DNA from: a virus
Taxonomy: Duplodnaviria; Heunggongvirae; Uroviricota; Caudoviricetes
Length of the DNA stretch: 10,688 bases
Strand: one strand, 5' to 3'
Virus record (IMG/VR): IMGVR_UViG_2778261676_000006
Coordinates: 1-10,688 of that record
A program made the translations under genes and the position numbers. Positions 2,821 to 10,688 of this stretch are shown piece by piece; within the stretch, counting starts at the first letter, position 1; each line of letters opens with the position of its first letter. The notes under the pieces were generated by a model, which saw only the letters and a program-made list of their open reading frames with translations, was not told where the DNA came from and ran no database searches.

Positions 2821-3119
2821 TGTCCTGTTCTCATTCAATTGTATTACTGAATAACGCCTTAAAAATCGCCGTTATGAAAAATGGCGATTTATCTCTTATT
2901 CAACTTTGTCTTGATAAAGAAAAACGCGACATAACTGAATCTGTTATCGCGATTTATCAGAATGAATTAAACCTCCTGTCTGATATGGTCAATTTACTTG
3001 TTAAACGCGCTGTGTTCCACAAGCAAATTTCCTCAGTGGATGAACTGACAAAATTAACGACAGAACTCGCCAGTTATTGCGCTGATGTATCCAGGAAACT
3101 TAACGATAAAAGGAGCTGA
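2820..3119 (+). CDS. Hypothetical early-region protein (P2 orf81-like position)
   Basis: Track ORF starts at TTG 2817; ATG 2820 overlaps the upstream stop (TGATG), with SD GGGAGG upstream. About 99 aa. Confidence 0.65.
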   Translation: MSCSHSIVLLNNALKIAVMKNGDLSLIQLCLDKEKRDITESVIAIYQNELNLLSDMVNLLVKRAVFHKQISSVDELTKLTTELASYCADVSRKLNDKRS

Positions 3120-3121
3120 TA

Positions 3122-3223
3122 ATGCCGGACAACGTAGATTTTATTCAGGAACAACAGGCTGAATTACTGGAGCGCCAGATTAACGCGGCAAGGGTAAAAC
3201 ATTGCGGTGTTTCTGCGCTGGTT
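3122..3223 (+). pseudogene. 5' fragment of orf82-like gene (probable TraR/DksA-type zinc-finger protein), truncated at a deletion junction
   Basis: Good SD (AAAGGAG) and ATG 3122. The N-terminus MPDNVDFIQEQQAELLERQINAARVKHCG looks like the start of a TraR/DksA-like small protein, but the C4 zinc-finger cysteines never appear. After about codon 34 the frame continues as an out-of-frame reading of gene A sequence up to 3538. Confidence 0.45.
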
Positions 3224-4959: not shown

Positions 4960-5196
4960 ATGATGAATATATTTGAACGTATTATAGGTAAAGCTGCTAT
5001 TGAAAAGGAAAGAGAACTGGCGAGGAGGCTTGAAGCATCTGGAACAAACACTGTTGAGGTGGTAGGTCGAGGCGCGATTATCACGTCTAAAGAAGACTTG
5101 GCAAGCTCAGATACAGTAAAATTGATGAAAATTAAAGCAAGAAAAATAGTTTCTGAGCAGGTAAAGCAAGAAGAAAAAATGGCTAAAGGGAATTAA
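4960..5196 (+). CDS. Small charged soluble protein (78 aa), first gene of a two-gene cargo operon
   Basis: GGAGG at 4951-4955 precedes ATG 4960/4963. Lysine/glutamate-rich, no TM segment. The stop is 2 nt before the start of the next gene. Low GC. Confidence 0.6.
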   Translation: MMNIFERIIGKAAIEKERELARRLEASGTNTVEVVGRGAIITSKEDLASSDTVKLMKIKARKIVSEQVKQEEKMAKGN

Positions 5197-5198
5197 TA

Positions 5199-5960
5199 AT
5201 GTTTGCTTTATTAATTATTCCATTACTTGTGAGTGGTTATATTGTATTAACCACTCATCCTTATCATTTCTATAGATTACACCGTTATGATGGGCAGTTG
5301 TTATATATGAAGTCAGCCGCCTTTGGTCTGTGGTGTTTTATATGGACATTGATTATAGCTTACTTAATAAAATGGATATGTCCGAGCTTCCATCCTGTCA
5401 CGATGGTTCGGGAACAATTAGATCTCAAACTTAGTGACAATGGTACTGAAAGAATCATAGGATGGATGATTTTACTTTCATGTGGAACGATATTTTTGGC
5501 TTGGATATGGAGTGTCGGTGCTAGATATTTGGTTATATATAGAGCTAAAATTATAAATTATATCCAAGGGGTAAAGGCTGCCAATATTGATTATGAGAAT
5601 CTTGTCATGCTAAGGATGAGGCAAGAGCTTATTAATGATAATCCAATGGATGAAATATTTTTTGATTCGTTAGTTGATAGACGTTCAATACTTATTACGT
5701 TGCAAAATAAAAAGACATATGTAGGAATTGTTAACGCATTAGGTGAGCCTAACGAGAAAGAAGGACCTAACCAGTATGTTTCAATCTATCCTATTATCTC
5801 TGGGTATAGAGATAAGGATTCATTGAAAGTAATCTTGGTGAATGAATATAGAGAGCTTGAGGATGCTGATACTAGTATCATCTTTCCACTAAAAGAAATT
5901 TCGCAAGTTTCTTGGTTTGATATGGATATTCATAAAATAGTTGAAAATAATAAGGTGTAG
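5199..5960 (+). CDS. Predicted integral membrane protein (3 N-terminal TM helices plus a soluble C-terminal domain of about 145 aa)
   Basis: 253-aa ORF. Hydrophobic segments FALLIIPLLVSGYIVL, AAFGLWCFIWTLIIAYLIKWI and IIGWMILLSCGTIFLAWIWSV. SD AAAGGGAA upstream; tightly coupled to the upstream gene. Low GC. Confidence 0.7.
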   Translation: MFALLIIPLLVSGYIVLTTHPYHFYRLHRYDGQLLYMKSAAFGLWCFIWTLIIAYLIKWICPSFHPVTMVREQLDLKLSDNGTERIIGWMILLSCGTIFLAWIWSVGARYLVIYRAKIINYIQGVKAANIDYENLVMLRMRQELINDNPMDEIFFDSLVDRRSILITLQNKKTYVGIVNALGEPNEKEGPNQYVSIYPIISGYRDKDSLKVILVNEYRELEDADTSIIFPLKEISQVSWFDMDIHKIVENNKV

Positions 5961-5963
5961 TAA

Positions 5964-5988
5964 ATGGTCACCTATAAAAGGTGACCAT
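5964..5988. terminator. Bidirectional intrinsic terminator between the convergent cargo operons
   Basis: Perfect 9-bp inverted repeat ATGGTCACC-tataaaa-GGTGACCAT, followed by a T-run on the + strand (ttattttt) and flanked by an A-rich stretch (T-rich on the - strand). Sits exactly between the stop at 5960 (+) and the stop at 5994 (-). Confidence 0.55.
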
Positions 5989-5993
5989 AATGC

Positions 5994-8258
5994 TTATTTT
6001 TGACGAATCCTGATTTTTGGTTGTTCACGAACAACAATATCAGTTTCTTTCCAACCAAGATTATTTATTTCAACCTCGGCTTCGTTGTAGACTGTAGTAG
6101 AATTGGCAAGAGATCTTAACGTAATAGCCAATACAGCACGTTGAGGTGAAGATAGAGGCTCTTGCTCTGCTCGTCTCTGAACATCAAGTTTAAGTCTCCA
6201 TTGCTCCCCATTTATACCTTGCGGAAATTGTTTTCTATAAACTTTGACTGGAGACCATTTGAAGCCATTTTCTATCAGTACCTTTTCAAATAATTCACTC
6301 TTTTCTTTTATTTGTGGAATTTTTCCGCTATGTATCCATTTAGCGTTAACTGGATCATAAGTGTAAGTCCCGAATGACACATCCACATTAGAACGGCAAT
6401 ATTCGGATGGGTAGTCATAATCAAGCGGTGGAGAATAAACGAGTGTCATAATAATTTCACCTGTGAATTTTCCATCCTCAGTACGTAATGACTGTGGTAT
6501 TACAAATGGCGTTCTACTGAATTCAATACCTTCTCGGGTATCTATTTCAAATAGAAATGTAATCTCATTTTTATTGCAACCAATAATATCATTTATATGA
6601 TCGCTTGGGCGTCCAAATCCTTGATAATTAAACGCATAATGCTCCGTTTTGGCTGGTGAGTTTTTTAACGCAGAATGAATTAATAGTGCCTTGATACGTT
6701 CAGGCGATGGTGAAATAGAACCATTAACATCTAGTTCATGCCACAGTGATGCCGCTAAACTTGAGATTAACGGTGCTGATAAACTTGTGCCAATACTTTC
6801 GCAAAGAGCATTGTCCTCGCCAATAGCTATGATTCCGGTATGTTCACAGTTTAATTTACTGTCACAATTACCTCCAAAGTGATTTATCTCTGGTTTGGGT
6901 ATAAAGGCTGGGCCGGGACCTCTTCTAGAAAAAGATGAAGGTTCAAATCTTTTGACCACAGAGTCAGACGATTCTAAATGGGCAACTGAGCCAACAGTTA
7001 ATGAACGAACAGAATCTGCGGGGGCTGATATTCTGTCATGCCCACCTAATTCTTGAGGAGGCCAGGTTCGTTGAGGATCATAAATGTAGTTGCCGGATGC
7101 TACGACGAAAAGACAATCATGCTCATCATGAAGTGCATTTAAAAAATGCCCCAATTCAGAGAAGCTGTCTTCAGAACATGGGGATTGACAACCTAATGAC
7201 AGATTCCATACACGTACTTCTGGATAGGTGGTCACAGCCTCTCGGATAGCTTTCATTAATTGTGGCAATTTGAGCGTACCATCTTTGGGAAAGGCTGCAA
7301 CATCAACAATTTCAGCTTGGCATTGAGGAAAACCAGCATAGTTATTCAACCATCTTCCATTAATTGCTAAACTTGCAACCATGTTCCCATGAGAATAGTC
7401 GTGTTCTCCTTTTACTAAATCTAAACTATCCCAAATCCATGGCCTAAGTATGTTGTTATTGGGATCGACTCCGCTATCTATAATTCCGAGTAGTGGATAA
7501 TGTTTATCCTCTTGAGGTAAGGGAAAATCATCTAGGTCTAGAGTTTCAGCAGGAATATATTGCGATACTGTATGAGTAAGACCAAATGTTGGCATAGGTT
7601 CTAATTTTCGTATGCCAATAAAACTTGCCAGTTGGGCGATGTTATCATTCCCTTTTACTTCATATATACTCAAATCTGAACTGATATCATACTTTTTGGG
7701 TTTTTGTATTCCTAGTTCATCTGCAAATTCCATTAATTCTTTGTCGATACTGCGGTTAGTTGTTCTATCTTTATGGTCAAAGAGTTTCAGAAGAAAACTA
7801 TCTGATTTATTTTTATCTATAACATCATGGTTAAGACTAAAAGGTTCGATCTTTTCAATTACAGCAATATGTACTGTCCCATTATGAGAATTAGTGCTAT
7901 TTTCAATTTTTTTGCGAAGTTGTGCTAACCCTTTTTCAGTAACACTTATAAGTAATTCTCCAAAATTATCACTGCCTATTACGGGACATGTATTATCACC
8001 TAATAGGCTTGATGGGCGATGTGACTTAGCAAGAGCTTTTTCATGAAGAGTAACTCTAGCCACCGCCGGTATATTGGGCCATTTTTTAAATGAGCTCTGG
8101 AAAAAATTTTTAACGTCATCGACTTCTTGTTTGAGTCTATTTTTTAGACTAGTTGTTACTGTTCGGATAGGTTGTTTCTTTCCGAAATTATATGTTTTTT
8201 CAGTAAAATCTTGAGGTGTCGCCTCAATTATTTTTATTGGTCTTTCTTTGTTACTCAT
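5994..8258 (-). CDS. ietS: S8 subtilisin-family serine peptidase, cytoplasmic, with extra N- and C-terminal domains (IetS-like)
   Basis: 754-aa ORF. S8 catalytic motifs in canonical order: Asp LLGIIDSGVD, His HGNMVASLA, oxyanion Asn VVASGNY, Ser GTSLSAPLISSLAA. No N-terminal signal peptide (MSNKERPIKIIEATPQDF). The start overlaps the stop of the upstream ATPase (ATGA at 8255-8258). Confidence 0.8.
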   Translation of the reverse strand: MSNKERPIKIIEATPQDFTEKTYNFGKKQPIRTVTTSLKNRLKQEVDDVKNFFQSSFKKWPNIPAVARVTLHEKALAKSHRPSSLLGDNTCPVIGSDNFGELLISVTEKGLAQLRKKIENSTNSHNGTVHIAVIEKIEPFSLNHDVIDKNKSDSFLLKLFDHKDRTTNRSIDKELMEFADELGIQKPKKYDISSDLSIYEVKGNDNIAQLASFIGIRKLEPMPTFGLTHTVSQYIPAETLDLDDFPLPQEDKHYPLLGIIDSGVDPNNNILRPWIWDSLDLVKGEHDYSHGNMVASLAINGRWLNNYAGFPQCQAEIVDVAAFPKDGTLKLPQLMKAIREAVTTYPEVRVWNLSLGCQSPCSEDSFSELGHFLNALHDEHDCLFVVASGNYIYDPQRTWPPQELGGHDRISAPADSVRSLTVGSVAHLESSDSVVKRFEPSSFSRRGPGPAFIPKPEINHFGGNCDSKLNCEHTGIIAIGEDNALCESIGTSLSAPLISSLAASLWHELDVNGSISPSPERIKALLIHSALKNSPAKTEHYAFNYQGFGRPSDHINDIIGCNKNEITFLFEIDTREGIEFSRTPFVIPQSLRTEDGKFTGEIIMTLVYSPPLDYDYPSEYCRSNVDVSFGTYTYDPVNAKWIHSGKIPQIKEKSELFEKVLIENGFKWSPVKVYRKQFPQGINGEQWRLKLDVQRRAEQEPLSSPQRAVLAITLRSLANSTTVYNEAEVEINNLGWKETDIVVREQPKIRIRQK

Positions 8259-9418
8259 AATATCTCTCTATAGTTCTTAGTTAGCCTTGACACTTTAGCA
8301 TTTGAAAGCCCTAGTATTTTTGCTATCTTTCGTATTGTAAATCTTTTGGGATTGTATTCTCTGAGAGTGGTCACAATCTTTATAAGTAAATTATCTTCTT
8401 CATCAAATGTAACTCCCTTCGCTTCTAAGATAGCCTCGACTAAAAATCGGGTATCGATTTGTTTATTATTGTAAACCAGAGCATGTCGCTCAGATCTTAA
8501 GCAGCATTGTTCTATAAATGAGCAGTTTAGCCCTGATGATATTTCCGCAAGGTCATCAACAAAATCGTCATATGTAGCTTTTATGTTTGAATATTGTTCA
8601 AATAGTTGTTTTCTGACTTCAAAATTAGGCAATCCAATAGATATTCTATACTCAAAGCGCCTCCAAACTGCGCTATCTAGAAGATTTTCATGATTACTTG
8701 CAGCAATCAATATTGTTTCTTCAGGTAGATTGTCAATATTTTGCAATAAAGAAACCACCACCCTCTTCAGTTCACCTAACTCATGCTGATCATCTCTAGC
8801 CTTTGCTAGAGAATCTAGTTCATCTAGAAATAAAACACATGGTGCTTTACTTGCATACTCAAATAGCTGCCTGATATTTTTAGAAGTAGACCCCAGATAT
8901 GATGAGACTAAGGAGTCACATCTTGCAGTAAGAAGCGGTAAATTTAGACAGGATGCAATATATTTTGATGTCAAGGTTTTACCACAACCTGGTGGCCCAT
9001 ATAAAATCATAGAGGATGTCACGCCAAGACCGGCATCCTTTAATTCTTTAGCTCGTTCAGTGAAAGTCAAAAATTCTTTAATTTTTTTCAGAGTGCTATC
9101 TTTCAACAATGGGAGTTGAATTTCAGAAGACGGTTGAGTTACGTCTGCTAAATCAAATTTAGTTTCTTTATCTACAGGTAATGTATCAAGACGTTCAAAA
9201 ATAGGTGATGTACTGCGTGATACTTTCTGCAAGTTAAACGTGTTTTTATCTTGAATACTACCTCTAATGGCTGAAGCAAGCTCAGGCAGCCCCATAGAAT
9301 CATAGGAACGCGCGAGTTTCGAAGCCTGCCGAACAAAAGCAACTTTATCCCCTTTGAGTCCAAGACTGATAAGCTGCGAAAGTATCTCGTTTGTGGTCAT
9401 TTGTGATACAAACCTCAT
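8255..9418 (-). CDS. ietA: AAA+ ATPase with C-terminal HTH-like tail (IetA-like)
   Basis: 387-aa ORF. Walker A GPPGCGKT (about 8975-8998), Walker B CVLFLDELD, sensor-1 LIAASNHEN, probable Arg finger in VWRRFEY. C-terminal IRKIAKILGLSNAKVSRLTKNY resembles a helix-turn-helix. Translationally coupled to the downstream S8 peptidase. Confidence 0.8.
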   Translation of the reverse strand: MRFVSQMTTNEILSQLISLGLKGDKVAFVRQASKLARSYDSMGLPELASAIRGSIQDKNTFNLQKVSRSTSPIFERLDTLPVDKETKFDLADVTQPSSEIQLPLLKDSTLKKIKEFLTFTERAKELKDAGLGVTSSMILYGPPGCGKTLTSKYIASCLNLPLLTARCDSLVSSYLGSTSKNIRQLFEYASKAPCVLFLDELDSLAKARDDQHELGELKRVVVSLLQNIDNLPEETILIAASNHENLLDSAVWRRFEYRISIGLPNFEVRKQLFEQYSNIKATYDDFVDDLAEISSGLNCSFIEQCCLRSERHALVYNNKQIDTRFLVEAILEAKGVTFDEEDNLLIKIVTTLREYNPKRFTIRKIAKILGLSNAKVSRLTKNYREIL

Positions 9419-9600
9419 TAATCTGTTGTCTAAATGGCTTATAGGTGAGACAAATTTCTATTTTAATGTAGTTTATATGTATTTTGGTGAAACGAACACT
9501 ATGTTTTACATAAATCTTTCAGGTTTGGAGTTCTTGGAGGGCATAGAGTTGCATCAATTTGCATTCTAATTAGACTTTTTTATTGCTATCGTATTCTACA
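9419..9600 (-). promoter_or_regulatory. AT-rich upstream region, presumed promoter of the ATPase-peptidase operon
   Basis: About 180 bp of AT-rich non-coding sequence upstream of the ATPase start on the minus strand, with several -10/-35-like hexamers; no single promoter can be assigned by eye. Confidence 0.3.
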
Positions 9601-9659: not shown

Positions 9660-9678
9660 GGCGAGGCGGGGAAAGCAC
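9660..9678. other. cos site (19-nt cohesive-end sequence of P2/P4 type)
   Basis: GGCGAGGCGGGGAAAGCAC matches the P2/P4 cohesive-end sequence as I recall it. It lies where cos is expected, between the cargo and the portal-side end of the genome. Confidence 0.6.
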
Positions 9679-9810: not shown

Positions 9811-9832
9811 AAAAAAGCCGCCCGCAGGCGGC
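9811..9832 (-). terminator. Minus-strand intrinsic terminator (in P2 would end the leftward portal/terminase operon)
   Basis: On the minus strand: GCCGCC-tgcg-GGCGGC hairpin followed by TTTTTT (plus strand reads aaaaaa gccgcccgcaggcggc). Confidence 0.45.
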
Positions 9833-9938
9833 GATGTTCAGCCGTTGTCAGTGTCCAGTGAGTAGTTTTTAAAGCGGATGACCTCCTGACCGAGCCAGCC
9901 GTTTATTTCCCGAATCCTGTCCTGTAGCCTCCCGTAAC

Positions 9939-10688
9939 AGGCTGGAAGCCAGTGTCGCTCCGTCACTGGCCGGAATTAAAATCCCGCACATCGACCAGTC
10001 GCAGGAGTCTGATGCAAAATTCCTGACCCGCCTTGCTGAACGCAACGGCGGTGAGGTGTCGGTAAAAATGGGAAAATTGTTGTTTCTCAAAGCGGGGCAG
10101 GGGGTGACGGCCAGCGGTAAAAAAATCCCGCAGATTACCATCGCCCGCAGCGACGGCGACCGTCATCATTTTGCGATTGCTGACCGTGGAGCCTACACCG
10201 GCGTAACGGCAAAGTGGTTACACACCAAAGACCCGAAGCCACAAAAGCAGAAGGTAAAACTGAAACGCAAAAAGAAAGAGAAACACCTGCGCGCACTGGA
10301 GCACCCGAAAGCGAAACCGGTCACGCAGAAGAAAGCGCCAAAAGTACCGGAAGCGCGCGAAGGTGAATACATGGCCGGTGAGGATGACAATGTTTTTGCC
10401 CTGACCACGGTATATGCCACGAAAGCGCAGGCCATGCGCGCCGCTCAGGCGAAGTGGGATAAACTGCAACGGGGCGTTGCGGAGTTCTCCATCAGCCTGG
10501 CTACCGGTCGGGCAGATATTTACACGGAAACACCGGTTAAGGTGTCAGGCTTTAAGCGTGTCATAGACGAGCAGGACTGGACCATCACTAAGGTGACACA
10601 TTTTCTGAATAATAGCGGCTTCACGACGTCCTTAGAGCTTGAGGTCAGGCTTTCTGATGTGGAGTACGAAACAGAAGATGATGAGTGA
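9939..10688 (+). pseudogene. D: 5'-truncated tail gene D (P2 gpD / phage late control D family), C-terminal part only
   Basis: The frame opens right after a stop at 9936-9938. The sequence IKIPHIDQSQESDAKFLTRLAERNGGEVSVKMGKLLFLKAGQG...SLELEVRLSDVEYETEDDE matches the C-terminal region of P2 gpD as I recall it (full length about 387 aa). The first standard start is GTG 10056 (track ORF 10056..10688). Only about 260 bp separate it from cos, with no N-terminal coding sequence. Confidence 0.75.

What the first reader, a model, noticed from the sequence alone, without database searches (positions are those of the whole stretch)
5994..8258. The subtilase is predicted cytoplasmic and carries about 250 aa of uncharacterised N-terminal sequence and about 230 aa of C-terminal sequence
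Typical subtilisins are secreted, with a signal peptide and propeptide. This protein starts MSNKERPIKIIEATPQDF with no hydrophobic leader; the catalytic Asp appears only around residue 260 and the catalytic Ser around residue 495. The flanking domains are candidates for autoinhibition, for sensing a phage trigger, or for substrate recognition.
Basis: seen in the sequence. Interest (0 to 1): 0.5.

Follow-up and report, generated by a model that had tools for sequence, protein, structure and literature searches.

The report
IetS toxin protease of IetAS defence
The long, leaderless subtilisin-like protease is IetS, the cell-killing protease of the already described two-gene IetA–IetS toxin–antitoxin and anti-phage system. 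Here it sits in the defence hotspot of a decayed P2-like prophage, and its extra N- and C-terminal domains are shared by the whole family and only partly unexplained.

Summary
ORF 5994..8258(-) encodes a 754-aa protein with no hydrophobic leader or membrane segment. Its only Pfam domain is Peptidase_S8 at aa 255-549 (triad D261/H290/S492). That leaves 254 aa on the N side and 205 aa, not 230, on the C side.

It is not an orphan. It matches PADLOC IetS end to end (E 1e-273). Its start overlaps the stop (ATGA) of an upstream AAA+ gene that matches IetA (E 1e-131). This is the known ietAS toxin–antitoxin / abortive-infection system, in the cos-proximal defence hotspot of a degraded P2-like prophage of E. 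coli.

Homologues are about 740-790 aa long and align over their full length, so both flanks belong to the family.

- **N flank:** an AlphaFold model (pLDDT 89.7) and fold searches suggest two tandem ferredoxin-like domains. The one next to the catalytic domain resembles subtilase prodomains and superposes in place with pro-subtilisin, Tk-SP and PCSK9.
- **C flank:** a β-domain that superposes best with KP-43.
- **Still unassigned:** aa 1-150, which carry the family's most conserved non-catalytic loop (ALAKSHRP).

Most likely it is a cytoplasmic, prodomain-latent protease restrained by the IetA ATPase. The system is already known but its mechanism is unsolved, so interest is modest.

The parts
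5994..8258 (-). ietS coding sequence: 754 aa plus stop, the toxin/effector S8 protease
   Evidence: ORF. PADLOC IetS PDLC02197 covers 1-747 of 749 positions, E 1.1e-273. NCBIfam IteS_antiphage scores 782 bits, below its 900 cut-off. phrog_3964 matches full length.
8073..8258 (-). aa 1-62: hydrophilic N-terminal tail (consensus LPIKVV...D) and a helical hairpin (H36-52, H54-59); no signal peptide
   Evidence: Hydropathy. Residues 1-20 form short strands with pLDDT 81-92 only in the full-length model. In the isolated N-terminal model they have pLDDT 62-72 and no strands. By inference, they dock on the rest of the protein.
7839..8072 (-). aa 63-140: first α/β (ferredoxin-like) domain, specific to IetS and the best conserved non-catalytic segment
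   Evidence: Secondary structure E65-71, E93-96, E101-106, H108-132, E134-139. Mean conservation of aa 63-107 is 0.70, against 0.61 for the S8 domain. Foldseek aligns the N module with tandem RRM, ACT and ferredoxin proteins over 165-190 columns.
8013..8036 (-). aa 75-82: ALAKSHRP loop, a family hallmark of unknown role
   Evidence: A75, A77, K78, R81 and P82 are invariant in 48 homologues. A77, K78 and P82 are still kept in phage-borne homologues of 21-32% identity (GIAKTHRP, FLAKTYIP).
7596..7799 (-). aa 154-221: second α/β domain with β-α-β-β-α-β order, resembling a subtilase prodomain (I9) at fold level only
7497..7595 (-). aa 222-254: poorly conserved linker between the prodomain-like and catalytic domains, ending in FPxP...YP; candidate pseudo-substrate or autoprocessing segment
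   Evidence: Conservation 0.40. Strands E224-226 and E235-239 appear only in the full-length model, not in the isolated N-terminal model. The role is inferred.
6612..7496 (-). aa 255-549: Peptidase_S8 catalytic domain. Codons: D261 at 7476-7478, H290 at 7389-7391, N390 at 7089-7091, S492 at 6783-6785
6024..6611 (-). aa 550-745: conserved C-terminal, mainly β domain (about 9 strands) with invariant E619, Y620, C621, N624, K667, W668, W687, R696 and W736
5997..6023 (-). aa 746-754: basic tail QPKIRIRQK, predicted disordered
   Evidence: pLDDT below 50 for 746-754.
8255..9418 (-). ietA: AAA+ ATPase (antitoxin), 387 aa from the first ATG; RefSeq starts at 9400 (381 aa). Its stop overlaps the ietS start
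   Evidence: PADLOC IetA E 1.4e-131. Pfam AAA at aa 137-262. Walker A at 141, pore-loop YLG at 174, Walker B at 195, sensor-1 N at 242, RRF at 253. ATGA overlap. RefSeq start.
5964..5988 (.). 10-bp-stem hairpin between the convergent ietS and the 253-aa ORF; likely a bidirectional terminator
   Evidence: Terminator scan.
9660..9678 (+). Phage P2 cos 19-mer, which places the cassette in the cos-proximal P2 defence hotspot
   Evidence: Exact match where 0 are expected by chance. The P2 cos sequence itself was recalled from memory. The hotspot is defined in PMC9122126.

Best explanation
The ORF is IetS, the subtilisin-family toxin/effector of a two-gene IetA–IetS toxin–antitoxin and abortive-infection module. 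The module is cargo in the gpA–cos hotspot of a decayed P2-like prophage of E. coli.

IetS is made and acts in the cytoplasm. Its 254-aa N flank is a family-specific module of two tandem α/β domains. The domain adjoining the catalytic domain is a covalently attached, prodomain-like unit that packs on the catalytic domain as in pro-subtilisins. I infer that it folds the enzyme and/or keeps it latent. The first domain carries the invariant ALAKSHRP loop and, I infer, is the regulatory contact for IetA or for a trigger. The 205-aa C flank is a β-domain of the type seen in KP-43.

The translationally coupled AAA+ ATPase IetA has Walker motifs, arginine fingers and an aromatic pore loop. It neutralises IetS in an ATP-dependent way, most likely by remodelling or unfolding IetS or by holding its prodomain in place. 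When a phage product disables or diverts IetA, or when IetA is lost, IetS becomes active and cleaves cytoplasmic proteins. That stops the cell and aborts the infection.

- **Shown here:** identity, gene pairing, absence of a leader, intact catalytic and ATPase motifs, family-wide conservation of both flanks, and fold-level domain assignments on a predicted model.
- **From the literature:** toxin/antitoxin roles, the abortive-infection phenotype, and the need for protease activity.
- **Inferred:** latency through the prodomain, the mode of IetA action, and the roles of aa 1-150 and of the C domain.

The confidence of 0.6 is for the whole statement. Taken separately, I put identity as IetS of an IetAS module at about 0.95, the fold-level domain map at about 0.65, and the latency / IetA-restraint mechanism at about 0.45.
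For: **Identity and pairing**
- PADLOC IetS 1-747/749 at E 1e-273, and IetA at E 1e-131.
- NCBIfam names IteS and IteA as best hits.
- ATGA start/stop overlap.
- The AAA+S8 gene pair recurs in a Flavobacteriales MAG, a cyanobacterium, a lambdoid E. coli phage and a Paenibacillus phage.

**Cytoplasmic location**
- No hydrophobic leader or membrane segment in this protein or its 48 aligned homologues.
- IetA also has no hydrophobic segment (maximum KD19 1.06).

**Flanks belong to the family**
- The homologues listed are about 720-766 aa long and cover 94-100% of the query.
- The N-terminal profile finds 647 cluster representatives. Among the top 150, the full-length proteins are about 690-790 aa, and the module starts within the first residues in nearly all of them.

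**Structure**
- AlphaFold2 model with pLDDT 89.7 and pTM 0.91.
- KP-43 aligns 369 of 434 residues.
- Linker strands 224-226 and 235-239 appear only when the catalytic domain is present.

**IetA as an active machine**
- Walker A, Walker B, pore-loop YLG and RRF.
- Its nearest solved relatives are VAT, p97 and Rix7 unfoldases, E 1e-47 to 1e-49.

**Literature**
- IetS is the toxin and IetA the antitoxin. The anti-phage mechanism 'remains unknown', protease activity is required, and ietA mutants could not be constructed (PMC13069673).
- ietAS causes abortive infection and is triggered by a phage protein, SPbeta YosG for the B. cereus system (bioRxiv 10.1101/2022.08.27.505566).
- A homologous Mycoplasma AAA/S8 pair behaves as a toxin–antitoxin system, and the protease is toxic when expressed inside E. 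coli (PMC8562856).
Against: - Scores fall below NCBIfam's equivalog cut-offs: 782 against 900 bits for IteS, and 385 against 510 bits for IteA. This is a divergent clade, and this allele has not itself been tested.
- Which of the two α/β domains is the prodomain equivalent, and whether the linker lies in the active-site cleft, could not be read out. The tools return no coordinates or aligned ranges.
- The C-domain assignment rests on aligned length alone.
- Nothing computed here shows autoprocessing, how IetA neutralises IetS, or what IetS cleaves.
- No dedicated signal-peptide predictor was run.
Confidence: 0.6

Rival explanations
1. The flanks are primarily sensors. The IetS-specific N-terminal module (aa 1-150), the C-terminal β-domain, or both bind a phage protein directly. 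Binding, rather than loss of IetA control, releases the protease. IetA then acts only as a folding or holding chaperone.
For: Residues 63-107 are more conserved than the catalytic domain (0.70 against 0.61). The AK[ST]xxP loop survives at 21% identity. Foldseek likens the N module to tandem ACT/RRM-type ligand-binding domains. Three of the more distant PADLOC IetS models align only from about aa 143-177 onward, which suggests clade-specific N termini. A single phage protein is enough to trigger ietAS toxicity.
Against: A sensor facing diverse phages is usually the most variable part of a defence protein. Here the segment is the most conserved. Literature reports that ietA mutants cannot be constructed, which points to continuous active restraint by IetA. 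No ligand- or protein-binding family is detected by sequence.
Confidence: 0.2
2. IetA and IetS form one ATP-dependent proteolytic machine, analogous to FtsH, Lon or PAN–proteasome. The IetA hexamer unfolds substrates and feeds them to IetS, and the IetS flanks are docking domains for the ATPase ring.
For: IetA is a classical-clade AAA+ protein with an aromatic pore loop. Its best matches outside the Iet family are proteasome-activating nucleotidase, FtsH and Cdc48. The genes are translationally coupled, and the pairing is conserved across phyla.
Against: Literature describes IetS as toxic on its own and IetA as the neutralising partner. That is the opposite of an obligate activator. Subtilases have open clefts rather than the gated chambers that unfoldase-dependent proteases need (established knowledge).
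Confidence: 0.12
3. It is an ordinary exported pre-pro-subtilisin with a pro domain and a C-terminal stabilising domain, and it merely lies next to an unrelated ATPase gene.
For: Fold-level likeness of the flanks to the prodomain and C-terminal domain of the secreted subtilases Tk-SP and KP-43.
Against: There is no hydrophobic leader or anchor in any of the 48 aligned homologues, and no room upstream for a leader. The start overlaps the ATPase gene's stop by 4 bp. The AAA–S8 pairing is conserved in distant lineages. Specific IetS and IetA profiles match full length.
Confidence: 0.02

Closest known systems
IetS/IetA (ietAS) of Agrobacterium pTiC58 (Yamamoto 2009, cited) and the ietAS anti-phage system (Gao 2020, cited)
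   Same: Two-gene operon with the AAA+ ATPase upstream of an S8 protease of about 750 aa. Full-length IetS and IetA profile matches. Intact triad and Walker motifs. Carried on a mobile element.
   Different: Divergent enterobacterial clade, scoring below the NCBIfam equivalog cut-offs. Located in a P2-prophage hotspot rather than on a Ti plasmid. This allele has not been tested. The original papers could not be read here.
Mycoplasma mycoides T133/A132 toxin–antitoxin pair of AAA-ATPase and subtilisin-like protease (PMC8562856)
   Same: Same architecture: a 757-aa S8 toxin and a 353-aa AAA antitoxin, with the antitoxin gene upstream. The toxin is lethal when expressed intracellularly.
   Different: Chromosomal in a wall-less Mollicute. 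Its sequence relationship to this protein was not measured here.
ietHAS, a three-gene variant with an SNF2 helicase (PMC13069673)
   Same: Shares the IetA and IetS modules. Protease activity is required for defence.
   Different: The window has no helicase gene. Upstream of ietA lie only an AT-rich leader, the cos site and a portal-gene remnant.
Pro-subtilisins with an I9-type prodomain (pro-subtilisin E 3whi, ProN-Tk-SP 3afg, PCSK9)
   Same: The predicted model places a β-α-β-β-α-β domain on the catalytic domain in the same position as their prodomains. By inference, this suggests zymogen-like latency or a foldase role.
   Different: No signal peptide. No Inhibitor_I9 sequence match. A further N-terminal segment of about 150 aa precedes it. 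Autoprocessing is unknown.
KP-43 alkaline protease (1wmd) and Tk-SP, subtilases with a C-terminal β-jelly-roll domain
   Different: They are secreted enzymes, and their C domain serves stability (from memory of the primary papers). The IetS C domain is about 200 aa, is as conserved as the catalytic domain, and has no sequence match.
[not shown]
   Different: ISPs are about 320 aa with a short LIPY/F-type N-terminal extension and no partner ATPase. IetS has 254 + 205 aa of extra domains, no LIPY/F motif (sequence), and depends on IetA.

Membership tests
IetAS (ietAS) toxin–antitoxin / anti-phage system | S8 protease gene immediately downstream of an AAA+ ATPase gene on the same strand, as one operon | tested here: met
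   ietA is at 8255..9418(-) and ietS at 5994..8258(-), with an ATGA overlap. The same pairing occurs in four distant lineages.
IetAS (ietAS) toxin–antitoxin / anti-phage system | Full-length match to IetS and IetA profiles (PADLOC) | tested here: met
   IetS PDLC02197 covers 1-747 of 749, E 1.1e-273, 908 bits. IetA PDLC02196 covers 9-382, E 1.4e-131.
IetAS (ietAS) toxin–antitoxin / anti-phage system | Score above the NCBIfam equivalog cut-offs (IteS_antiphage NF042956; IteA_antiphage NF042959) | tested here: not met
   782.4 bits against a cut-off of 900, and 385.3 bits against 510. These are the best hits by far and cover the full length, but they are sub-threshold. This matches the generic RefSeq names 'S8 family peptidase' and 'AAA family ATPase'.
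IetAS (ietAS) toxin–antitoxin / anti-phage system | Intact Asp-His-Ser triad and oxyanion Asn in IetS; Walker A/B and arginine fingers in IetA | tested here: met
   D261, H290, N390 and S492 are invariant. GPPGCGKT at 141, VLFLDE at 195, RRF at 253.
IetAS (ietAS) toxin–antitoxin / anti-phage system | IetS toxic in the cytoplasm and neutralised by IetA | not testable with these tools
   Known for homologues only.
IetAS (ietAS) toxin–antitoxin / anti-phage system | Protects against phage by abortive infection | not testable with these tools
   Shown for other alleles, from B. cereus and from E. coli ECOR52. Whether those are this allele was not checked.
Classical secreted pre-pro-subtilisins (S8A with I9 propeptide) | N-terminal signal peptide | tested here: not met
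   Hydrophilic N terminus, no hydrophobic stretch, and no upstream extension possible. This rests on hydropathy only; no SignalP was available.
Classical secreted pre-pro-subtilisins (S8A with I9 propeptide) | Sequence match to the Inhibitor_I9 propeptide family | tested here: not met
   No Pfam hit for aa 1-250 at E<=10, and none in 28 family members.
Classical secreted pre-pro-subtilisins (S8A with I9 propeptide) | β-α-β-β-α-β prodomain packed on the catalytic domain | tested here: met
   [not shown]
Classical secreted pre-pro-subtilisins (S8A with I9 propeptide) | Autocatalytic removal of the prodomain | not testable with these tools
   The linker aa 222-254 is poorly conserved, and no cleavage site can be called.
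Kexin/furin proprotein convertases | P domain (P_proprotein) following the catalytic domain | tested here: not met
   No Pfam hit in the C flank of this protein or of 19 members. Furin 4omc_A aligns only 278 of 466 residues.
KP-43 / Tk-SP type subtilases with a C-terminal β-jelly-roll | C-terminal β-domain superposable in place | tested here: inconclusive
   KP-43 aligns 369 of 434 residues, against 234-255 for single-domain subtilases. No aligned ranges are available, no isolated C-domain model was made, and there is no sequence match.
Bacillus intracellular subtilisin proteases (ISP) | Protein of about 320 aa whose only extra element is a short N-terminal LIPY/F extension | tested here: not met
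   The protein has 754 aa, no LIPY/F motif in the N terminus, and two large flanks.
Type VII secretion mycosins | Score above the TIGR03921 cut-off, plus a signal peptide and a C-terminal membrane anchor | tested here: not met
   29 bits against a cut-off of 278.75. No hydrophobic segments.

The most novel reading that the evidence does not exclude
IetS is a true zymogen whose latency is maintained actively. The AAA+ unfoldase IetA continuously engages an IetS-specific handle, either the invariant ALAKSHRP loop of the first N-terminal domain or the disordered basic C-terminal tail. This keeps the prodomain-bearing protease from maturing. Phage proteins that stall IetA then release a cytoplasmic subtilisin. 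That would be an ATP-fuelled 'guarded protease' principle not described for other defence systems. The first domain would be a new regulatory fold family confined to IetS.
Probability: 0.2. Interest if true: 0.65.

Novelty: already known. Interest (0 to 1): 0.3.

Why it matters
ietAS is a widespread toxin–antitoxin and abortive-infection system, and a 2026 paper still describes its anti-phage mechanism as unknown.

The map proposed here is a prodomain-like unit plus a KP-43-like β-domain, with the unexplained part narrowed to aa 1-150 and its invariant ALAKSHRP loop. It gives concrete boundaries for truncation and point-mutant experiments, and a testable latency model. It does not reveal a new kind of system. 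The locus itself is a routine instance of defence cargo in the P2 cos-proximal hotspot.

Tried and rejected
- **Pfam on the isolated flanks** (aa 1-250 and 551-754) at E<=10 found nothing.
- **Pfam on family members.** The 28 N-terminal and 19 C-terminal sequences gave only scattered single-member hits, taken as noise.
- **Profile searches of the flanks against PDB sequences** gave only ribosomal S3 (E 0.11) for the N flank and eL31 (E 0.008-1) for the C flank. I treat both as chance.
- **Full-length PDB sequence search** found only S8 cores at E>=5e-4, so no IetS structure has been solved.
- **T7SS mycosin and QhpE NCBIfam hits** were rejected as far below their cut-offs.
- **The afdb50 fold library** was unavailable.
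- **Literature.** Yamamoto 2009 and Gao 2020 are not held in the library. Searching for 'IteS'/'IteA' returned nothing. A 2026 review of defence systems does not mention ietAS.
- **Not possible here.** No isolated C-domain model could be made because the structure jobs were exhausted. No coordinates are returned, so contacts of the linker or the ALAKSHRP loop with the active site could not be inspected.
Full report
**1. The observation**

The window holds an ORF at exactly 5994..8258 on the minus strand. It encodes 754 aa beginning MSNKERPIKIIEATPQDF. Only three in-frame codons are open upstream of the ATG, so no leader can be hidden by a mis-called start. The ATG overlaps the stop of the upstream gene as ATGA.

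The first 40 residues are hydrophilic. The highest 19-residue Kyte-Doolittle mean anywhere is 1.15, at aa 484-502, which is the helix carrying the catalytic serine. That is below the usual 1.6 membrane threshold. In 48 aligned homologues the median maximum 12-residue hydropathy in the first 70 aa is 0.73. The few 19-residue windows that reach 1.6 are internal β-strands.

Pfam finds only Peptidase_S8, at aa 255-549 (E 6.7e-24). D261, H290 and S492, plus the oxyanion N390, are invariant. One detail needs adjusting: the C flank beyond the Pfam domain is 205 aa, not about 230. No dedicated signal-peptide predictor was available, so 'cytoplasmic' rests on hydropathy, gene context and literature.

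**2. What it is**

The protein matches PADLOC's IetS model over its whole length (1-747 of 749, E 1.1e-273). The upstream 387-aa ORF (8255..9418, minus strand) matches IetA (E 1.4e-131). NCBIfam's best hits are 'S8 family anti-phage peptidase IteS' and 'anti-phage ATPase IteA'. Both cover the full length but score below the equivalog cut-offs: 782 against 900 bits, and 385 against 510 bits. This explains the generic RefSeq names.

According to the literature, ietAS was first described as a plasmid-stabilising toxin–antitoxin pair, with the serine protease as toxin and the ATPase as antitoxin. It was later shown to protect against phage. A 2026 paper states that its anti-phage mechanism 'remains unknown', that protease activity is required, and that ietA mutants could not be constructed (PMC13069673). 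A preprint reports that a B. cereus ietAS acts by abortive infection and is triggered by the SPbeta protein YosG. A Mycoplasma AAA/S8 pair of the same architecture is a functional toxin–antitoxin system, and its protease is toxic when expressed inside E. coli (PMC8562856).

The AAA–S8 gene pair recurs next to distant homologues. These are found in a Flavobacteriales MAG, a cyanobacterium, a lambdoid E. coli phage and a Paenibacillus phage.

**3. Context**

The 4.7-kb cassette region is at least 99.7% identical in 12 of 5426 complete E. coli genomes. In strain DCE7 it sits in a P2-like prophage between the replication gene A region and the portal gene Q. The P2 cos 19-mer, recalled from memory, occurs exactly at window 9660-9678, where 0 matches are expected by chance. 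The cassette therefore occupies the cos-proximal gpA–gpQ defence hotspot defined by Rousset et al. (PMC9122126).

Compared with DCE7, the prophage in the window is decayed. About 1.9 kb is missing at window 3222/3223, which truncates gpA. Homology ends at 9926, inside the 3' end of Q. After that a 3' fragment of tail gene D follows. G+C is 0.32-0.42 across 5000-9500, against 0.52-0.55 in the flanks.

**4. The flanks belong to the family**

456 homologues score E<1e-5. The 120 listed are about 720-766 aa long and cover 94-100% of the query at 37-90% identity. A profile of aa 1-252 searched against 1.84 billion cluster representatives finds 647 proteins. Among the top 150, the full-length proteins are about 690-790 aa, the rest are shorter sequences, and the module starts within the first residues in nearly all. 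At this depth the N module looks specific to IetS.

Conservation is uneven:

| Segment | Mean conservation |
|---|---|
| aa 63-107 | 0.70 |
| S8 domain | 0.61 |
| C flank | 0.56-0.58 |
| aa 151-222 | 0.42 |
| Linker 223-254 | 0.40 |

The loop A75-L-A-K-S-H-R-P82 is invariant at A75, A77, K78, R81 and P82. It survives as GIAKTHRP and FLAKTYIP in phage homologues of 32% and 21% identity.

**5. Structure**

- **Single-domain enzymes** such as thermitase, proteinase K and PatA align 234-255 residues.
- **Pro-enzymes align more.** ProN-Tk-SP aligns 408, against 300 for mature Tk-SP. Unprocessed pro-subtilisin E aligns 316. PCSK9 with its prodomain aligns 308, against 237 for the catalytic chain.
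- **KP-43**, which has a C-terminal β-barrel domain, aligns 369 of 434 residues.
- **Furin**, which has a P domain, aligns only 278.

These are interleaved with other ferredoxin-like folds such as ribosomal S6/S10 and ACT domains. Foldseek finds nothing at E<=1e-3. It does give prob 1.0 and 0.98 for the Alp1 and PCSK9 prodomains. It also aligns 165-190 columns to tandem RRM, ACT and ferredoxin proteins.

I read the N flank as follows:

- **aa 1-62:** a tail and a helical hairpin.
- **aa 63-140:** a first α/β domain.
- **aa 154-221:** a second α/β domain with canonical β-α-β-β-α-β order, which is the prodomain equivalent.
- **aa 222-254:** a linker.

Residues 1-20 and linker strands 224-226 and 235-239 are ordered only in the full-length model. 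This is what one would expect if they dock on the catalytic domain. That is an inference, because no coordinates are returned.

At sequence level there is no Inhibitor_I9, P_proprotein or any other Pfam signal in either flank, and no credible PDB sequence hit. No IetS structure has been solved.

**6. IetA**

IetA has Walker A (GPPGCGKT, 141), an aromatic pore loop (YLG, 174), Walker B (195), a sensor-1 Asn and an RRF arginine pair. Its nearest solved relatives are substrate-threading unfoldases such as VAT, Rix7 and p97, at E about 1e-47 to 1e-49. Its last 65 residues give 15 weak, sub-threshold helix-turn-helix family hits.

**7. Mechanism**

The best-supported reading is that IetS is a cytoplasmic subtilase made with a covalently attached prodomain-like unit that aids folding, keeps it latent, or both. 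IetA uses ATP to keep it harmless. A phage product, or loss of IetA, lifts that control. IetS then cleaves cytoplasmic proteins and aborts the infection.

- **Shown here:** identity, gene pairing, leaderless sequence, intact motifs, conserved flanks, and fold-level assignments.
- **From the literature:** toxin/antitoxin roles, abortive infection, and the requirement for protease activity.
- **Inferred:** prodomain latency, how IetA acts, and the roles of aa 1-150 and of the C domain.

My confidence is about 0.95 for the identity, about 0.65 for the domain map and about 0.45 for the mechanism, or 0.6 for the statement as a whole. The rivals are direct trigger sensing by the flanks (0.2), an IetA-fed proteolytic machine (0.12) and an ordinary exported subtilisin (0.02).

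**8. Comparison and verdict**

The locus meets the architectural and profile criteria of ietAS, apart from NCBIfam's strict equivalog scores. It fails the defining features of secreted pre-pro-subtilisins (leader, I9 sequence), proprotein convertases (P domain), ISPs and mycosins.

Its interpretation is partly supported. Autoinhibition is plausible, but much of the 'uncharacterised' sequence resembles ordinary subtilase accessory domains at fold level, and the protein belongs to a named system. The novelty rating is 'already known'.

The residual interest lies in the unsolved mechanism and in the IetS-specific first 150 residues.

Noticed in passing
window 4960-5196 (+) and 5199-5960 (+): Two adjacent ORFs of 78 and 253 aa converge on ietS inside the same low-GC hotspot cargo. 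They match only PHROG families of unknown function (phrog_37504, phrog_3630) and no PADLOC, Pfam or NCBIfam family. The 253-aa product has three strongly hydrophobic segments, at about aa 1, 39 and 85. They may be a separate exclusion or defence gene pair.
   Followed up: partly
window 8258-8452 (-), last 65 aa of IetA: The C-terminal tail of IetA (…RFTIRKIAKILGLSNAKVSRLTKNY…) gives 15 weak, sub-threshold helix-turn-helix family hits; the best is HTH_28 at E 1.3e-3. The ATPase antitoxin may also bind DNA and autoregulate the operon.
   Followed up: partly
window 9660-9678 (+): An exact copy of the phage P2 cos 19-mer GGCGAGGCGGGGAAAGCAC, a sequence recalled from memory. It places ietAS in the cos-proximal P2 hotspot.
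   Followed up: yes
window 3222/3223 and 9926/9927: Compared with the intact P2-like prophage of E. coli DCE7 (L001), about 1.9 kb is missing at 3222/3223, which truncates replication gene A. Homology ends at 9926, inside the 3' end of portal gene Q. After that a 3' fragment of tail gene D (10056-10688) follows. The window is a decayed prophage remnant that has kept ietAS.
   Followed up: partly
window 5000-9500: G+C drops to 0.32-0.42 across the cargo (the two small ORFs plus ietS and ietA), against 0.52-0.55 in the phage backbone on either side. This is consistent with horizontally acquired cargo.
   Followed up: no
window 5964-5988 and 9817-9832 (-): A 10-bp-stem hairpin fills the 33-bp gap between the convergent 253-aa ORF and ietS. 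A GC-rich hairpin followed by a T-run lies on the minus strand upstream of the ietA leader, next to the portal-gene remnant.
   Followed up: no
L007 about 2995-3108 (Paenibacillus phage Yerffej): The annotated start of the phage's S8 gene lies just before the conserved AK[ST]xxP loop. The frame stays open upstream without an ATG and encodes GGGEKPY…, which resembles the family's N-terminal consensus. The annotated protein is probably N-terminally truncated.
   Followed up: partly
window 8255-9418 (-): The ietA start is ambiguous. The first ATG is at 9418 and gives 387 aa, whereas RefSeq uses the ATG at 9400 and gives 381 aa.
   Followed up: no
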